Source of the DNA: Escherichia coli
GTDB taxonomy: Bacteria; Pseudomonadota; Gammaproteobacteria; Enterobacterales; Enterobacteriaceae
Strand: one strand, 5' to 3'
NCBI RefSeq assembly: GCF_044324785.1
Contig: NZ_CP172127.1
DNA: 64,000 nucleotides
Shown here: in pieces, positions 2,691-37,967 of the stretch
Layout: the number at the start of each line of letters is the position of its first letter
Numbering within the stretch: the stretch's first letter is position 1
Made by a program: the position numbers and the translations under genes
Notes under the pieces: model-generated
Database searches by the model: none
What the model saw: the letters and a program-made list of their open reading frames with translations, nothing else
Told to the model about the DNA's origin: nothing

Positions 2691-2763
2691 AACATTTAAG
2701 CTGATGACCACCGCGCTTTTTATTGACCATTTTGCACGCAAACTGGAAAACCTGGCGTCGTCA

Positions 2764-2774
2764 TCTATTCTTAA
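2764..2774 (+). promoter_or_regulatory. Sigma-S type extended -10 element for sdsR
   Basis: TCTATTCTTAA matches the RpoS extended -10 consensus (TCTATACTTAA) at 10 of 11 positions, placed to start transcription at about 2778. Confidence 0.5.
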
Positions 2775-2777
2775 AGG

Positions 2778-2881
2778 GCAAGGCAACTAAGCCTGCATTA
2801 ATGCCAACTTTTAGCGCACGGCTCTCTCCCAAGAGCCATTTCCCTGGACCGAATACAGGAATCGTGTTCGGTCTCTTTTTA
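2778..2881 (+). ncRNA. sdsR: sRNA SdsR (RyeB), RpoS-dependent
   Basis: Sequence GCAAGGCAACTAAGCCTGCATTAATGCCAACTTTTAGCGCACGGCTCTCTCCCAAGAGCCATTTCCCTGGACCGAATACAGGAATCGTGTTCGGTCTCTTTTT recognised as SdsR; ends in hairpin CCGAA..TTCGG plus T-run; about 104 nt. Confidence 0.7.
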
Positions 2882-3014
2882 TCTGTTAAAAGCCAGAAGC
2901 ATTCCCTTCGCTGACTTTATAGTCAACCATAACACACACTCTACTGTCTGAGTCCAGCGTTTTTTAACATTCTTGTTAAGATTATGTGATCTTTAGCGCG
3001 GGAGGAAAATATTG

Positions 3015-17723: not shown

Positions 17724-18392
17724 TCCTTCCTCAATCTTGAGTAACCCCGTCGTTGAAGGGTTACTCAATTCATCCTGATTATACGCACTGCCATGGTGCA
17801 ACTGCTTCAAATTAAAACTCTGGTCTGACTTCAAATAATTATCATATTATTTATTTGCGTAACGGGATATCAGAAAAAGATATTTAGCCCATTAATTTAT
17901 TAGGATGTTTACATCGGATTTGTGATTAAGTGTGGTATTATTTATTAGCGAAACGTTTCTCTCTTGATTTTTTTGCGCATTCATCAATTTTTCTTATTTT
18001 AAATTTACAATACCTTTGGCGATTGACTTCTCTTTGGGGTGATTGATAGCCGTTAACTGACTGTTTTATGAGAAAAAGTGATATAACTTTTTATTCATTG
18101 CATAGCAGAAAATGTGATATTGCACGCACTATGTAATAACTTCTCCCATTGGCCTGGAACAACTGAACTTATTGAACTATGTTAGAAAATACGTCAGTTT
18201 AAGTATCTGCCTGAACTGGCAAGGTTAAGCACAATGATATATCGGCGCGTATTCCGTTGCATAAGTGTGCAAAAAAAGTGGAAGACGTATCGAGATTTGT
18301 GCGTCTGATCGAGACATGTTTAAAAATGGCTTGCCATAATTAACGTTGTATGTGATAACAGATTTCGGGTTAAACGAGGTACAGTTCTGTTT

Positions 18393-18536
18393 ATGTGTGG
18401 CATTTTCAGTAAAGAAGTCCTGAGTAAACACGTTGACGTTGAATACCGCTTCTCTGCCGAGCCTTATATTGGTGCCTCATGCAGTAATGTGTCAGTTTTA
18501 TCTATGTTATGCCTGCGGGCGAAGAAAACAATCTAA
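18393..18536 (+). CDS. yobF: Small protein YobF (47 aa), co-transcribed with cspC
   Basis: Hand translation [47 protein letters not shown]; stop 12 nt before the cspC start. Confidence 0.8.
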
Positions 18537-18548
18537 GGAATTTTTCAA

Positions 18549-18758
18549 ATGGCAAAGATTAAAGGTCAGGTTAAGTGGTTCAACGAGTCTAAAGGTTTTG
18601 GCTTCATTACTCCGGCTGATGGCAGCAAAGACGTGTTCGTACACTTCTCTGCTATCCAGGGTAATGGTTTCAAAACTCTGGCTGAAGGTCAGAACGTTGA
18701 GTTCGAAATTCAGGACGGTCAGAAAGGTCCGGCAGCTGTTAACGTAACAGCTATCTGA
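18549..18758 (+). CDS. cspC: Cold-shock-family protein CspC
   Basis: 69-aa [72 protein letters not shown] with RNP1/RNP2 motifs. Confidence 0.95.
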
Positions 18759-18803
18759 TCGAATCCACTGATCTGAAGTGTGAATACGCTTCAATCTCGC
18801 TAT

Positions 18804-18830
18804 AAAGCCTCGTCGAATGCGAGGCTTTTT
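18804..18830 (+). terminator. Intrinsic terminator after cspC
   Basis: aaagcctcg-tcgaatg-cgaggctttttt hairpin plus T-run. Confidence 0.8.
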
Positions 18831-18923
18831 ACTTTGCTTTCTCTTCGCTCCAGTCGTTCGGATATTTGCCCGCCGCGTGATTCGCGTTACACTTGCGGCC
18901 TTTAGTATCCTGCCGGAGTTGTC

Positions 18924-19733
18924 ATGTCGTTTTCCTGTCCACTTTGCCATCAGCCTCTTTCGCGTGAAAAAAACAGCTATATCTGTCCCCAGCGACATCA
19001 GTTTGATATGGCGAAAGAAGGGTATGTCAATCTGCTGCCCGTTCAGCATAAACGGTCTCGTGATCCGGGCGACAGCGCGGAAATGATGCAAGCACGCCGC
19101 GCATTCTTAGATGCCGGACATTATCAGCCGCTGCGTGATGCAATTGTCGCTCAACTGCGGGAACGGCTTGATGAAAAGGCCACAGCGGTGCTGGATATTG
19201 GCTGTGGTGAAGGGTATTACACACACGCATTTGCCGATGCGCTGCCCGAAATCACCACGTTTGGCCTGGATGTCTCGAAGGTAGCGATAAAAGCGGCGGC
19301 GAAACGCTATCCGCAGGTCACTTTTTGTGTTGCTTCCAGCCACCGTTTGCCGTTTTCCGATACCAGTATGGACGCCATAATACGTATTTACGCGCCGTGT
19401 AAAGCAGAAGAATTAGCGCGAGTAGTGAAGCCTGGCGGTTGGGTCATTACTGCCACGCCGGGACCGCGACATTTGATGGAGCTGAAGGGGCTGATTTACA
19501 ATGAAGTACATCTTCATGCACCACATGCAGAACAACTGGAAGGTTTTACATTACAGCAGAGTGGTGAGTTGTGTTATCCGATGCGTCTTCGCGGTGACGA
19601 AGCCGTCGCATTATTGCAGATGACGCCGTTTGCCTGGCGTGCGAAGTCAGAAGTCTGGCAAACACTGGCAGCAAAAGAAGTGTTCGACTGCCAGACGGAC
19701 TTTAATATTCACCTCTGGCAGCGTTCTTATTAA
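18924..19733 (+). CDS. rlmA: 23S rRNA m1G745 methyltransferase RlmA
   Basis: 269-aa ORF with N-terminal Cys4 zinc motif (CPLCHQ...CPQRH) and SAM-binding DIGCGEG motif. Confidence 0.9.
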
Positions 19734-20296
19734 CCGTGGAAGTGCGTCCAGAGGATCTGGACGCCGATGCCGATCAGTACCAGCCCACCGAGAATTTCCG
19801 CTTTTTTCCCAATAATTGAGCCGATAAAGCGACCAACCATCATCCCTAATGTCGACATAATCAAGGTTGCACAACCAATGGCCAATGCGGTCGCGATAAT
19901 GTTGACCTGCAGAAAGGCGAGACCAACACCCACAGCCATGGCATCCAGGCTGGTGGCAATCGCGGTGGTTACCAGTAGCCAGAAACCGTGTCGACGGCGC
20001 GGTTCTTGATCTTCATCATCTGCGCCACGAAAACCCTCAATAATCATTCGCCCGCCGAGGAATATCAGCAGCACAAACGCAATCCAGTGGTTCCATTCAA
20101 GGACAAACCGGCTGGCTAACATGCCCATTCCCCAGCCGATCAGCGGCGTCAGGGTTTCGACGGCACCAAAAATAAGGCCGGTTCGCAACGCTTCAGAAAA
20201 TTTCGGTTTATGGAGGGTGGCACCTTTACCGATTGATGCAGCAAATGCATCCATCGACATACCAAACGCAAGAAGAACAGTAGCAGTGATATTCAT
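19730..20296 (-). CDS. mntP: Manganese efflux pump MntP
   Basis: Track ORF 19730..20350 trimmed to [25 protein letters not shown]... (188 aa); stop codon overlaps the rlmA stop in a TTAA tetranucleotide. Confidence 0.85.
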
Positions 20297-20525
20297 GACA
20301 ACGTCCTGACCGGGGTATCCATAAAACACATCATCGCCCCCAGCAAACATGCATACATGAACGACAAACCGCGATGGTTTTCGCGTTCATGCAGGCATAG
20401 CGATTGATGTGCATATGGTCTCGCCTGACTGAAAGTGTTCAGTCCGTACGTGCCACGTTTTGCAACGAGTATGTTGACACGTACATTTCCGGAATCTGGA
20501 AATCGGCTACTCCCCAAATGAGGGC
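20297..20525 (-). ncRNA. mntP 5' leader containing yybP-ykoY-type Mn2+ riboswitch
   Basis: Minus-strand leader contains the hallmark motif TTGGGGAGTAGCC (plus-strand 20507-20519 region) and an ...AGACCATATGCACATC... segment; known long Mn-responsive mntP leader. Confidence 0.6.
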
Positions 20526-20724: not shown

Positions 20725-21183
20725 TTATTGAGTTGAAACGAGAAGCTTATAAATTTTTTCCAGATCGTCGATATTTCGAACGCGGATTAACAGCCGACGC
20801 TGTTCTAATTGCATCACCAACACGCCATCTTCCGACAAGTTCATCGCTTTGATTCGGCTATATTCAATCCAGACATTGGCGAAGAAAAAACCTTTTTGTT
20901 TAAAGATGATCTTCGGAACGCGGATCCAGAATATATAAAAACCCATCAGAGCCAGTGCACTTAATAACCATGTTGTTATTAGCGCGCCATGATTCGTGAC
21001 GTTGTTATAGATAAGAATGACAATCAATCCGACGAAGATAACGCTATCGATGCGACCACGCCGGAGCAAAGGAATTGCCAGCAGAGTGGGGCCGTTACGG
21101 CGGGGCATGATGAACTGATCGTAGATCGCGAAGGCCAGGAGTGCGGCGATGAAAAGAATCAGTACCAGGTCCGTGATTGTCAT
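20725..21183 (-). CDS. yobD: Inner membrane protein YobD (UPF0266)
   Basis: 152-aa hydrophobic [43 protein letters not shown]... Confidence 0.85.
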
Positions 21184-36236: not shown

Positions 36237-37922
36237 TTGAAGAAGGTTTGGCTTAACCGTTATCCCGCGGACGTTCCGACGGAGATCAACCCTGACCGTT
36301 ATCAATCTCTGGTAGATATGTTTGAGCAGTCGGTCGCGCGCTACGCCGATCAACCCGCGTTTGTGAATATGGGGGAGGTGATGACCTTCCGCAAACTGGA
36401 AGAACGCAGTCGCGCGTTTGCCGCTTATTTGCAACAAGGGTTGGGACTGAAGAAAGGCGATCGCGTTGCGTTGATGATGCCTAATTTATTGCAATATCCG
36501 GTGGCGCTGTTTGGCATTTTGCGTGCCGGGATGATTGTCGTAAACGTTAACCCGTTGTATACCCCGCGTGAACTTGAGCATCAGCTTAACGATAGCGGCG
36601 CATCGGCGATTGTTATCGTGTCTAACTTTGCCCACACTCTGGAAAAAGTGGTTGATAAAACCGCCGTTCAGCACGTAATTCTGACCCGTATGGGCGATCA
36701 GCTATCTACGGCAAAAGGCACGGTAGTCAATTTCGTTGTTAAATACATCAAGCGTCTGGTGCCGAAATACCATCTGCCAGATGCCATTTCATTTCGTAGC
36801 GCCCTGCACAACGGCTACCGGATGCAGTACGTCAAACCCGAACTGGTGCCGGAAGATTTAGCTTTCCTGCAATACACCGGCGGTACCACTGGTGTGGCGA
36901 AAGGCGCGATGCTGACTCACCGCAATATGCTGGCGAACCTGGAACAGGTTAACGCGACCTATGGTCCGCTGTTGCATCCGGGCAAAGAGCTGGTGGTGAC
37001 GGCGCTGCCGCTGTATCACATTTTTGCACTGACCATTAACTGCCTGCTGTTTATCGAACTGGGTGGGCAGAACCTGCTTATCACTAATCCGCGCGATATT
37101 CCAGGGTTGGTAAAAGAGTTAGCGAAATATCCGTTTACCGCTATCACTGGCGTTAACACCTTGTTCAATGCGTTGCTGAACAATAAAGAGTTCCAGCAGC
37201 TGGATTTCTCCAGTCTGCATCTTTCCGCAGGCGGAGGGATGCCTGTTCAGCAAGTGGTGGCAGAACGTTGGGTGAAACTGACTGGACAGTATCTGCTGGA
37301 AGGTTATGGCCTGACCGAGTGTGCGCCGCTGGTCAGCGTTAACCCGTATGATATTGATTATCATAGTGGTAGCATCGGTTTGCCGGTGCCATCGACGGAA
37401 GCCAAACTGGTGGATGACGACGACAACGAAGTACCACCGGGTCAACCGGGTGAGCTTTGTGTCAAAGGACCGCAGGTGATGCTGGGTTACTGGCAGCGTC
37501 CGGATGCTACCGATGAAATCATCAAAAATGGCTGGTTACACACCGGCGACATCGCGGTGATGGATGAAGAAGGATTCCTGCGCATTGTCGATCGTAAAAA
37601 AGACATGATTCTGGTTTCCGGTTTTAACGTCTATCCCAACGAGATTGAAGATGTCGTCATGCAGCATCCTGGCGTACAGGAAGTCGCGGCTGTTGGCGTA
37701 CCTTCCGGCTCCAGTGGTGAAGCGGTGAAAATCTTCGTAGTGAAAAAAGATCCATCGCTTACCGAAGAGTCACTGGTGACTTTTTGCCGCCGTCAGCTCA
37801 CGGGCTACAAAGTACCGAAGCTGGTGGAGTTTCGTGATGAGTTACCGAAATCTAACGTCGGAAAAATTTTGCGACGAGAATTACGTGACGAAGCGCGCGG
37901 CAAAGTGGACAATAAAGCCTGA
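36237..37922 (+). CDS. fadD: Long-chain fatty acid-CoA ligase FadD (TTG start)
   Basis: Track ORF 36171..37922 trimmed to TTG-initiated (M)[25 protein letters not shown]... (561 aa); AMP-binding motif [11 protein letters not shown] present. Confidence 0.9.
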
Positions 37923-37940
37923 GCGTTAAGTCAGTCGTCA

Positions 37941-37967
37941 GACGCCGGTTAATCCGGCGTTTTTTTT
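37941..37967 (+). terminator. Intrinsic terminator after fadD
   Basis: acgccgg-ttaat-ccggcgt hairpin followed by TTTTTTT. Confidence 0.85.

What the first reader, a model, noticed from the sequence alone, without database searches (positions are those of the whole stretch)
19730..19733. rlmA and mntP stop codons overlap in a palindromic TTAA
The plus-strand rlmA stop (TAA, 19731-19733) and minus-strand mntP stop (19730-19732) share three bases. No intergenic terminator is possible, so each mRNA 3' end must lie inside the other gene. Together with the riboswitch-controlled mntP leader, this could link rRNA methyltransferase expression to Mn-dependent mntP read-through.
Basis: seen in the sequence. 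Interest (0 to 1): 0.35.

Follow-up and report, generated by a model that had tools for sequence, protein, structure and literature searches.

The report
Overlapping rlmA/mntP stops with embedded hairpins
The rlmA and mntP genes of this Escherichia genome really do end back-to-back in a shared TTAA, but this is a common, already annotated kind of 4-base overlap, and published RNA 3'-end maps show that the rlmA message simply ends at a conserved hairpin 37-40 bases inside mntP, with no evidence of manganese-dependent cross-talk.

Summary
The TTAA is real. The rlmA stop is TAA at 19731-19733 (+) and the mntP stop is at 19732-19730 (-). The two stop codons share two bases, not three, and the CDS overlap is 4 nt. 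E. coli K-12 carries the same annotation. This is the known modal class of convergent overlap (TTAA/CTAA/TTAG/CTAG). It is kept in 64 of 80 Enterobacteriaceae species; Klebsiella and Raoultella have a 3-nt spacer instead.

The overlap itself is less informative than two hairpins that flank it.
- **Hairpin 1** (19744-19764) lies inside mntP, 10 nt after the rlmA stop.
- **Hairpin 2** (19688-19721) lies inside rlmA, 8 nt after the mntP stop.

Each hairpin is the strongest synonymous-site structure outlier in its host gene. Two published E. coli 3'-end datasets place the rlmA mRNA end 6-9 nt after hairpin 1 (window 19770-19773). Bicyclomycin data show that read-through beyond this point is Rho-dependent. 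This is the known pattern of Rho termination followed by trimming back to a protective stem-loop. The mntP 3' end has not been mapped; hairpin 2 is my prediction.

The proposed link between Mn, mntP and rlmA has no supporting data, and the architecture looks like insulation. Low interest.

The parts
18924..19733 (+). rlmA CDS (23S rRNA m1G745 methyltransferase), stop TAA at 19731-19733
   Evidence: ORF list. NCBIfam NF008300 equivalog, 475.6 bits. RefSeq annotation.
19730..20296 (-). mntP CDS (Mn exporter, 188 aa), stop TAA at 19732-19730, followed in frame by a second TAA at 19729-19727
   Evidence: NCBIfam NF008546, 413 bits, aligned 1-188/188. Annotation. Sequence.
19730..19733 (.). TTAA tetramer holding both stop codons. 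The CDS overlap is 4 nt and the stop codons share 2 nt.
   Evidence: Sequence. One of the four tetramers named for convergent 4-bp overlaps in PMC2174442. Conserved in 64/80 species.
19744..19764 (+). Hairpin 1: GCGUCCAG-AGGAU-CUGGACGC (8 bp, no U tract). It lies in mntP codons 178-185, 10 nt downstream of the rlmA stop, and is the 3'-terminal stem-loop of the rlmA mRNA.
   Evidence: Fold -17.5 kcal/mol, z -2.5 in the 45-nt rlmA-sense context; the 31-nt core on the mntP-sense strand gives -15.8 kcal/mol, z -4.6. It is the most stable conserved 31-nt window on the mntP-sense strand and third on the rlmA-sense strand. It is the top synonymous-resampling outlier of 60 mntP windows on the rlmA-sense strand (delta -5.4 kcal/mol). 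Covariation is moderate. G.U pairs outnumber A.C mismatches 46:11 on the rlmA-sense strand. The published 3' ends lie 6-9 nt after the stem.
19770..19773 (+). Experimentally mapped steady-state 3' end of the rlmA transcript (K-12 1906214 and 1906211/2, transferred by alignment)
   Evidence: Adams 2021 Supplementary file 1, in two of the three growth-condition tabs (two separate rows; which tabs was not checked). TRS 2023 tables. Coordinate mapping.
19765..19880 (+). C-rich, G-poor tract on the rlmA read-through RNA (antisense to mntP); candidate Rho loading region
   Evidence: GC skew -0.27 to -0.41 in the 80-nt windows spanning 19760-19879. Published Rho termination region with Rho score 10.2. 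Dar & Sorek place rut sites just downstream of protective stem-loops. The rut assignment is an inference.
19688..19721 (-). Hairpin 2: CUGCCAGA-(18 nt)-UCUGGCAG. It lies in rlmA codons 255-266, 8 nt downstream of the mntP stop, and is the predicted 3'-terminal stem-loop of the mntP mRNA.
   Evidence: Fold -17.8 kcal/mol, z -4.5. It is the most stable of 125 rlmA windows on the mntP-sense strand and by far the strongest synonymous-resampling outlier there (delta -5.18 against a next best of -2.16). Its function is inferred; no mntP 3' end has been mapped.
19678..19687 (-). Predicted (not observed) position of the mntP mRNA 3' end, a few nt after hairpin 2
   Evidence: Inferred by analogy with hairpin 1 and the rlmA end. 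No intrinsic-terminator-like site occurs on the minus strand downstream of the mntP stop within 18300-19730.
20427..20523 (-). Mn2+ (yybP-ykoY) riboswitch aptamer in the mntP 5' leader
   Evidence: RF00080, 41.9 bits, E 1.4e-9, below the gathering score of 45. The E. coli mntP riboswitch is described in PMC11647493.
20303..20449 (-). mntP leader region containing the published premature 3' end (K-12 1905681, window 20303) and Rho termination region (K-12 1905535, window 20449)
   Evidence: TRS table. Adams Supplementary file 2. Mapping. Rho termination in the leader is relieved by Mn.

Best explanation
This is an ordinary 4-nt tail-to-tail gene overlap. Because there is no intergenic DNA, the 3'-end signals of each gene are written into the last 12-15 codons of the other gene.

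For rlmA, several steps are shown by published data. RNA polymerase passes the TAA and enters mntP in antisense. The steady-state mRNA ends 6-9 nt after an 8-bp GC-rich hairpin that has no U tract (hairpin 1). Transcription beyond that point is suppressed by Rho.

Other steps are inferred from the published general model. Rho loads on the C-rich antisense-mntP RNA just downstream, terminates diffusely, and 3'-5' exonucleases trim back to hairpin 1, which then protects the message.

For mntP everything is inferred. The mirror-image element, hairpin 2 inside rlmA, would play the same role when mntP is transcribed under Mn.

The net effect is to define and stabilise two independent 3' ends and to limit antisense read-through. 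It is not to couple the two genes. The TTAA itself is probably a passively maintained compaction: the hairpins are also kept where the stops are separated by 3 nt (Klebsiella, Raoultella).
For: Overlap and gene identities. Known class with the named tetramers. Conservation and variants across 80 species.

rlmA 3' end:
- Term-seq places it at 1906214(-), classed 'primary rlmA / antisense mntP', in two of the three growth-condition tabs.
- The independent TRS method places it at 1906211/2(-) and prints the same hairpin at -17.5 kcal/mol.
- These map to window 19770-19773.

Rho dependence: Rho score 10.2, p 1.3e-31, with downstream reads rising from 22 to 530 under bicyclomycin. No U tract follows the hairpin, and no intrinsic-terminator-like site is found at the junction. 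A C>G tract lies directly after hairpin 1. General model.

Selection on the hairpins:
- Hairpin 1 is the most stable conserved window on the mntP-sense strand and third on the rlmA-sense strand; hairpin 2 is fourth on the mntP-sense strand.
- Synonymous resampling puts hairpin 1 first of 60 windows on the rlmA-sense strand.
- Synonymous resampling puts hairpin 2 first of 125 windows on both strands.
- In the fixed-register test, 17 cells show changes on both sides against 3.9 +/- 2.1 in shuffles.
- G.U versus A.C asymmetry is 46:11 in favour of the rlmA-sense strand for hairpin 1.
Against: - The mntP 3' end has never been mapped in the datasets I could read, so half of the symmetric model is prediction.
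- Exonuclease trimming at this locus is assumed from the general model, not shown.
- A 3' end 6-9 nt after a stem is also the geometry of direct hairpin-dependent termination.
- Hairpin 1 is not a unique outlier. Two other mntP windows (63 and 216 nt from the stop) show similar synonymous constraint.
- A fixed-register 8-bp covariation scan did not single hairpin 1 out.
- In many genera the outer stem pairs only with a register shift or bulge.
- The species are related, so shuffle-based significance is inflated.
- Hairpin 2 shows no strand asymmetry in wobble pairs (16 versus 12).
Confidence: 0.7

Rival explanations
1. One reading: the overlap is a regulatory coupling device. When Mn opens the riboswitch and MntR activates the promoter, mntP transcription runs into rlmA in antisense. 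It then lowers RlmA through head-on polymerase collisions or through an RNA duplex with the rlmA 3' end (excludon-like).
For: Both transcripts must cross the junction. The mapped rlmA end (19770-19773) and any complete mntP mRNA would be complementary over at least 41-44 nt, and over about 90 nt if mntP ends after hairpin 2. mntP transcription is strongly conditional on Mn and Rho. No intrinsic terminator follows mntP on the minus strand.
Against: - No dataset or paper links rlmA expression to Mn or mntP.
- The conserved hairpin directly after each stop, together with Rho-dependent suppression of read-through, is what insulation would look like.
- The arrangement is the commonest class of convergent overlap and needs no special function.
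- Klebsiella and Raoultella separate the stops by 3 nt but keep the hairpins.
- There is no known physiological logic tying m1G745 methylation to Mn (my own knowledge).
Confidence: 0.1
2. Collision-driven bidirectional termination (model of Ju 2019 and Wang 2022). The hairpins pause polymerases arriving from either side, and head-on plus trailing collisions set both 3' ends.
For: The pair is convergent, with hairpin-forming sequence in the region both transcripts would cover. The model requires a stem-loop for ends at well-defined positions.
Against: - mntP is almost silent without Mn: it is terminated in its leader, and no mntP 3' end is detected. Yet the rlmA end is sharp in ordinary media.
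- The read-through is bicyclomycin-sensitive, which implicates Rho.
- The model predicts efficient termination for highly expressed pairs, and neither of these genes is highly expressed.
- There are two separate hairpins rather than one shared palindrome.
Confidence: 0.08
3. Hairpin 1 is a weak, U-less intrinsic terminator. The 3' end at +6 to +9 nt would be made directly by RNA polymerase release, with Rho acting only as a backstop on polymerases that escape.
For: A GC-rich 8-bp stem at -15 to -17 kcal/mol with a 3' end 6-9 nt after it. Dar & Sorek discuss mixed or transitional terminators.
Against: The tail is CGAUGCCGAU with a single U (the TRS table lists 1 U). The consensus scan does not call it. 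A Rho score of 10.2 indicates that most stopping is Rho-dependent.
Confidence: 0.1
4. The hairpins are by-products of protein sequence and codon usage, and the overlap is a frozen accident. No RNA-level function would exist.
For: The inner stems come from conserved residues: Q-I-L-W in MntP, and C-Q...W-Q in RlmA. The hairpin 2 stem is mostly invariant, which says nothing either way. Related species inflate the statistics (note).
Against: - Real sequences are 3.5-5.4 kcal/mol more stable than synonymous resamples that encode the same peptides, and they rank first in each gene.
- Compensatory changes include paired amino-acid changes: Val/Thr GTC..ACG versus Ala/Ala GCC..GCA.
- Paired synonymous changes also occur: TTGCCAG..CTGGCAA in at least four species.
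- A real RNA 3' end sits at hairpin 1.
Confidence: 0.05

Closest known systems
4-bp convergent (tail-to-tail) gene overlaps sharing stop codons (Lillo & Krakauer 2007, PMC2174442; also Rogozin 2002 and Johnson & Chisholm 2004, as cited in PMC2478687)
   Same: Two real convergent genes whose stops sit in one TTAA tetramer. 4 bp is the modal overlap length, and TTAA, CTAA, CTAG and TTAG are the four permitted tetramers. All four occur at this locus in different species.
   Different: Nothing differs. This is a plain member, already annotated in E. coli K-12.
Rho-dependent transcripts ending at protective stem-loops without U tracts (Dar & Sorek 2018, PMC6061677)
   Same: A precise steady-state 3' end just after a stable stem-loop, no U tract, a C>G sequence downstream, bicyclomycin-sensitive read-through, and an end located inside a neighbouring coding region.
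   Different: The stem-loop is encoded in the last codons of a convergent gene, only 10 nt after the stop. It shows synonymous-site and amino-acid-level co-variation across genera. A mirror-image hairpin sits on the other side of the junction. Trimming by PNPase or RNase II has not been shown for this locus.
Overlapping bidirectional terminators of convergent gene pairs (Ju et al. 2019; Wang et al. 2022, bioRxiv 10.1101/2022.10.23.513370)
   Same: A convergent pair, transcripts that overlap at their 3' ends, and hairpin-forming sequence in the shared region.
   Different: There is no intergenic region at all. There are two separate hairpins rather than one palindrome. One partner (mntP) is nearly silent under the conditions where the rlmA end is sharp. 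Rho dependence is documented.
Canonical intrinsic (Rho-independent) terminator
   Same: A GC-rich stem-loop with the RNA end a few nt after it.
   Different: There is no U tract and the consensus scan does not detect it.
Excludon / antisense interference between neighbouring genes (my own knowledge: Listeria excludons, Sesto et al. 2013)
   Same: Conditional transcription of one gene necessarily produces RNA antisense to its neighbour.
   Different: Excludons involve long antisense transcripts with demonstrated reciprocal expression. Here the mapped overlap is tens of nt, read-through is curtailed by Rho, and no reciprocal expression is documented.

Membership tests
4-nt convergent stop-codon overlap | Two convergent, genuine protein-coding genes | tested here: met
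   NCBIfam equivalog hits well above cutoff for both genes. RefSeq annotation. Orthologues in 80 species.
4-nt convergent stop-codon overlap | Both stop codons are contained in one tetramer of the set TTAA/CTAA/TTAG/CTAG | tested here: met
   TTAA at 19730-19733. Tetramer set from PMC2174442. 64/80 species carry one of the four.
Intrinsic terminator | Stable GC-rich stem-loop | tested here: met
   Hairpin 1 has 8 bp. It folds at -17.5 kcal/mol (z -2.5) in the 45-nt rlmA-sense context, and the 31-nt core on the mntP-sense strand folds at -15.8 kcal/mol (z -4.6).
Intrinsic terminator | U-rich tract (about 7-8 nt) immediately after the stem | tested here: not met
   The tail is CGAUGCCGAU. No terminator-like site is called at the junction on either strand. 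After hairpin 2 the tail is UCGAACAC, followed later by CUUCUUUUG.
Rho-dependent terminator with protective 3' stem-loop | Steady-state 3' end immediately downstream of a stable stem-loop lacking a U tract | tested here: met
   Published 3' ends 1906214 and 1906211/2(-) map to window 19770-19773, 6-9 nt after the stem. Fold. Shown for rlmA only.
Rho-dependent terminator with protective 3' stem-loop | Read-through increases when Rho is inhibited | tested here: met
   From published data, not my own experiment: Rho score 10.2, p 1.3e-31, downstream reads 22 to 530 with bicyclomycin (Adams 2021 Supplementary file 2).
Rho-dependent terminator with protective 3' stem-loop | C-rich, G-poor (rut-like) RNA downstream of the stem-loop | tested here: met
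   GC skew -0.27 to -0.41 in the 80-nt windows spanning 19760-19879 on the rlmA-sense strand. This is composition only; Rho binding is not shown.
Rho-dependent terminator with protective 3' stem-loop | Longer precursors trimmed by PNPase or RNase II back to the stem-loop | not testable with these tools
   This needs RNA-seq of pnp and rnb mutants at this locus. The Dar & Sorek supplementary tables are not held.
Overlapping bidirectional terminator (SEnd-seq class) | Mapped 3' ends of both convergent transcripts that overlap across a shared hairpin | tested here: inconclusive
   Only the rlmA end is mapped. No mntP 3' end appears in either dataset. Ju 2019 is not held. There are two hairpins rather than one.
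yybP-ykoY Mn2+ riboswitch (mntP leader) | Match to the Rfam RF00080 covariance model at or above the gathering score | tested here: inconclusive
   41.9 bits against a gathering score of 45; E 1.4e-9 in a 1.4-kb search; absent from the gathering-threshold scan. The literature treats the E. coli mntP leader as a Mn riboswitch.
   No expression data with and without Mn for rlmA were found.

The most novel reading that the evidence does not exclude
The two mutually embedded hairpins and the forced 3' overlap could form a conserved Mn-responsive antisense module. Under Mn excess, induced mntP transcripts would end after hairpin 2 and become complementary to the last 90 nt or so of the rlmA mRNA. 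This would trigger duplex cleavage or polymerase collisions that lower RlmA. As a corollary, the C-terminal residues of MntP (positions 179 and 184) and the synonymous sites of RlmA codons 255-266 would evolve under selection from the neighbour's RNA rather than from their own protein.
Probability: 0.1. Interest if true: 0.5.

Novelty: new member of a known kind. Interest (0 to 1): 0.2.

Why it matters
The overlap itself matters little. It is a textbook 4-nt convergent overlap, annotated in thousands of E. coli genomes.

The modest value is as a clean, well-conserved worked example of what happens to 3'-end signals when two convergent genes have no spacer. Each gene's 3' stem-loop is written into the other gene's final codons. 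Codon choice there, and at hairpin 1 apparently amino-acid choice too, is constrained by the neighbour's RNA.

The locus also gives a concrete, cheap prediction for the unmapped mntP 3' end.

It also flags a practical caveat. Rho inhibition raises antisense-mntP RNA coming from rlmA, which could contaminate assays of mntP that are not strand-specific.

Tried and rejected
- **Rfam gathering-threshold scan of the whole window.** It did not report the mntP riboswitch. A local E-value scan was needed.
- **Fixed-register 8-bp helix scan of the 1437-column mntP+rlmA alignment, as a covariation control.** Many spurious helices passed, and hairpin 1 failed the 80% pairing threshold because its outer stem shifts register in many genera. 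I dropped this as a test and used register-free tests instead: the mean local MFE profile and synonymous resampling.
- **30-nt windows for rlmA.** They were too short for the 34-nt hairpin 2, so I repeated the scan with 36-nt windows anchored on Gln266.
- **Searches for a mapped mntP 3' end.** None was listed in Adams 2021 or TRS 2023. No supplements were held for Dar & Sorek 2018 or the Rend-seq annotation paper. The TERMITe supplements had nothing for this locus. Ju 2019 and Dambach 2015 are not held.
- **Literature searches.** Searches for mntP+rlmA, rlmA+manganese and yebN+rrmA gave only a deletion table and nothing on regulation.
- **Canonical intrinsic terminator at the junction.** Rejected because there is no U tract.
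- **Hairpins as a pure protein or codon-usage artefact.** Rejected on the synonymous-resampling results.
Full report
**1. The observation**

The window is Escherichia DNA. It is 98.3% identical to K-12 across this stretch. The closest matches are E. coli VCSW7 and Escherichia sp. MOD1-EC7003.

The local gene order is cspC (18549-18758 +), rlmA (18924-19733 +), mntP (19730-20296 -), yobD (20725-21183 -).

Bases 19730-19733 read TTAA. The rlmA stop is TAA at 19731-19733. The mntP stop is TAA on the minus strand at 19732-19730. However, the two stop codons share two bases (19731, 19732), not three, and the coding sequences overlap by four.

RefSeq annotates exactly this arrangement in K-12: mntP 1905688..1906254 (+) and rlmA 1906251..1907060 (-). 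The 1.66-kb query aligns at 95% identity or better in 5422 of 5426 complete E. coli genomes.

**2. Is the overlap unusual?**

No. In prokaryotes, 4 bp is the modal overlap length. [quoted passage not shown]

I examined the junction in 80 Enterobacteriaceae species:

| Junction type | Species | Notes |
|---|---|---|
| 4-nt overlap | 64 | 53 TTAA, 7 CTAA, 3 TTAG, 1 CTAG |
| Spacer of 1-16 nt | 13 | 10 have 3 nt, mostly Klebsiella and Raoultella |
| Longer overlap (13 or 48 nt) | 3 | |

The arrangement is therefore old and stable, but it drifts among the equivalent solutions. That pattern fits passive retention: an indel in the tetramer would change both C-termini. It does not require a dedicated function.

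**3. What lies around the overlap**

Two inverted repeats flank the TTAA.

- **Hairpin 1** (19744-19764) is GCGTCCAG-aggat-CTGGACGC. It lies in mntP codons 178-185 and begins 10 nt after the rlmA stop.
- **Hairpin 2** (19688-19721, read on the minus strand) is CTGCCAGA-(18 nt)-TCTGGCAG. It lies in rlmA codons 255-266 and begins 8 nt after the mntP stop.

In the window both fold at -16 to -18 kcal/mol. Against dinucleotide shuffles, z is about -4.5 for the tight windows and -2.5 for hairpin 1 in its 45-nt rlmA-sense context.

Neither hairpin is followed by a U tract. The consensus scan finds no intrinsic-terminator-like site at the junction, and none on the minus strand anywhere downstream of mntP within 18300-19730.

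**4. Experimental 3' ends (published data)**

- **Term-seq.** Supplementary file 1 of Adams et al. 2021 (PMC7815308) lists a 3' end at 1906214(-), classed 'primary' for rlmA and 'antisense' to mntP. It appears in two of the three growth-condition tabs. The printed 61-mer places the end 6 nt after the 3' arm of hairpin 1. I checked the register against the manZ terminator row.
- **TRS.** The independent TRS analysis (PMC10687069) gives 1906211/1906212 (range 1906209-1906219). It prints the same hairpin at -17.5 kcal/mol and gives a 41-nt 3' UTR.
- **Mapping.** By alignment these positions are window 19770-19773, which is 37-40 nt inside mntP.
- **Rho dependence.** Supplementary file 2 of Adams et al. 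lists a Rho termination region at 1906268(-) (window 19716). The Rho score is 10.2 and p is 1.3e-31. Reads in the 800 nt downstream rise from 22 to 530 with bicyclomycin.
- **Candidate rut site.** Immediately after hairpin 1 the rlmA-sense strand is C-rich and G-poor, with GC skew -0.27 to -0.41 in the 80-nt windows spanning 19760-19879.

This is the pattern Dar & Sorek (PMC6061677) described for Rho-dependent transcripts. Such transcripts have precise steady-state ends just after stable stem-loops without U tracts, including ends inside downstream coding regions. The rut sites lie just beyond, and PNPase or RNase II trims back to the stem-loop.

For mntP, neither dataset lists a 3' end after the gene. 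They list only a leader 3' end at 1905681(+) (window 20303) and a Rho region at 1905535(+) (window 20449). This agrees with Prakash et al. 2024 (PMC11647493). They show that Rho terminates in the riboswitch leader and early ORF unless Mn restores translation.

**5. Are the hairpins selected?**

- **Mean local stability.** I computed the mean MFE of 31-nt windows across 80 species along a 1437-column alignment of both genes. On the mntP-sense strand hairpin 1 is the most stable window (-11.4 against a gene-wide -5.5 +/- 2.0) and hairpin 2 is fourth. On the rlmA-sense strand hairpin 1 is third.
- **Synonymous resampling, hairpin 1.** I redrew codons while keeping each species' peptide. Hairpin 1 ranks first of 60 mntP windows on the rlmA-sense strand (real minus resampled = -5.4 kcal/mol, background -0.4 +/- 1.5). 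It ranks second on the mntP-sense strand (per-sequence detail).
- **Synonymous resampling, hairpin 2.** Hairpin 2 ranks first of 125 rlmA windows on both strands. On the mntP-sense strand the difference is -5.18 against a next best of -2.16 (background -0.15 +/- 1.0). It is also the most stable window on that strand.
- **Covariation, hairpin 1.** The changes include coupled amino-acid changes: Val/Thr (GTC..ACG) in Escherichia and Salmonella versus Ala/Ala (GCC..GCA) in Citrobacter and Enterobacter. Other solutions occur in Trabulsiella, Cedecea and Kluyvera.
- **Fixed-register test, hairpin 1.** 76% of cells pair, against 52% or less for slid controls. 17 cells show changes on both sides, against 3.9 +/- 2.1 in shuffles.
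- **Strand asymmetry.** For hairpin 1, wobble pairs that pair only on the rlmA-sense strand outnumber the reverse 46 to 11. This fits function in the rlmA RNA. Hairpin 2 shows no such asymmetry (16 versus 12).

Caveats:
- The species are related.
- The outer stem of hairpin 1 needs a bulge in many genera.
- A naive fixed-register scan did not single hairpin 1 out.
- Two further mntP windows, 63 and 216 nt from the stop, show comparable constraint.

**6. Mechanism**

Shown:
- The rlmA mRNA ends just after hairpin 1, inside mntP.
- Read-through beyond that point is Rho-sensitive.
- Both hairpins are conserved beyond what the proteins require.

Inferred:
- Rho loads on the C-rich antisense-mntP RNA.
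- Exonucleases trim the transcript back to hairpin 1.
- Hairpin 2 does the same job for mntP, giving a predicted end near 19678-19687 on the minus strand.

I rate this at about 0.7 overall: higher for the rlmA half and about even odds for the mntP half.

Rivals:
- Collision-driven bidirectional termination (0.08). This is disfavoured because mntP is nearly silent where the rlmA end is sharp, and because of the bicyclomycin effect.
- A U-less intrinsic terminator with Rho as backstop (0.1).
- A pure coding artefact (0.05).

**7.

The structural deduction holds, and it is confirmed experimentally for rlmA. The regulatory deduction has no support. I found no expression data or paper linking rlmA with Mn or mntP. 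The riboswitch acts at the 5' leader. The junction looks built to stop and stabilise two transcripts. The idea remains testable: complete mntP and rlmA mRNAs must be complementary over at least about 41-44 nt.

**8. Comparison and novelty**

The overlap is a plain, already annotated member of the 4-nt convergent class. The rlmA 3' end is a member of the Dar & Sorek class of Rho-dependent ends at protective stem-loops. Three of that class's four defining features are met: one by published mapping combined with my fold, one by published data, and one by composition here. Exonuclease trimming is untestable with these tools. The site fails the U-tract criterion for an intrinsic terminator. Membership of the SEnd-seq 'overlapping bidirectional terminator' class cannot be decided without an mntP end.

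What seems undescribed for this locus is the mirror-image pair of coding-embedded hairpins and their synonymous and amino-acid co-variation. That is a new instance of a known kind, not a new kind. Interest is 0.2.

Noticed in passing
window 19796-19825 and 19948-19980 (both inside mntP): Two further 30-nt windows of mntP, 63 and 216 nt upstream of its stop, show synonymous-site structure constraint as strong as hairpin 1. The signal is stronger on the antisense (rlmA-sense) strand (delta -4.85 and -5.36 kcal/mol). The first is a strong hairpin in Klebsiella and Kosakonia (-17 to -20 kcal/mol) but is essentially lost in Escherichia (-3 kcal/mol). They could be backstop structures for rlmA read-through or features of the mntP mRNA; I could not tell which.
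   Followed up: partly
window 19984-20014 (+): A terminator-like site lies on the rlmA-sense strand, deep inside mntP: AACCGTGTCGACGGCGCGGTT followed by CTTGATCTTC (fold -13.6 kcal/mol). It is about 250 nt past the rlmA stop and is a possible secondary stop for antisense read-through.
   Followed up: no
window 19727-19732 (-): In Escherichia, mntP ends with two in-frame stops, TAA TAA. The second is the complement of rlmA's Ser-Tyr codon bases. It is absent in most other genera.
   Followed up: no
window 19734-20296, minus-strand gene versus plus-strand RNA: Bicyclomycin raises RNA antisense to mntP about 10-fold through rlmA read-through (Adams Supplementary file 2). The reported 20-fold bicyclomycin induction of 'mntP' was measured by RT-PCR with ORF primers (PMC11647493). 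If the reverse transcription was not strand-specific, that figure could partly reflect the antisense RNA.
   Followed up: no
window ~18926-18928 (+), K-12 1907056-1907058 (-): The TRS tables list an 'internal' 3' end right at the rlmA start codon, after a structured leader and before a U-rich run (GUCAUGUCUUUUUCC in K-12). This may be an attenuation or processing site for transcripts entering rlmA from cspC.
   Followed up: no
window 20427-20523 (-): The well-studied E. coli-type mntP Mn riboswitch scores 41.9 bits, below Rfam's gathering score of 45 for RF00080. A standard gathering-threshold annotation therefore misses it.
   Followed up: yes
window 20297-20350 (-): The mechanical ORF for mntP extends 18 codons upstream to an ATG at 20350 (206 aa). 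The family model and RefSeq support the 188-aa protein starting at 20296.
   Followed up: yes
window 2740-2884, 18373-18833, 37881-37966: Rfam gathering-threshold hits elsewhere in the window: SraC/RyeA (-) overlapping SdsR/RyeB (+) at 2740-2884; a cspA-type thermoregulator model covering the yobF-cspC region; and sroD at 37881-37966.
   Followed up: no
loci L045 (Huaxiibacter), L048 (Lelliottia sp.), L082 (Kluyvera intermedia): In these species rlmA appears to have lost its usual stop and runs 13-48 nt into mntP in antisense. They would be natural test cases for how far the overlap can grow. I did not check them for sequencing or annotation error.
   Followed up: no
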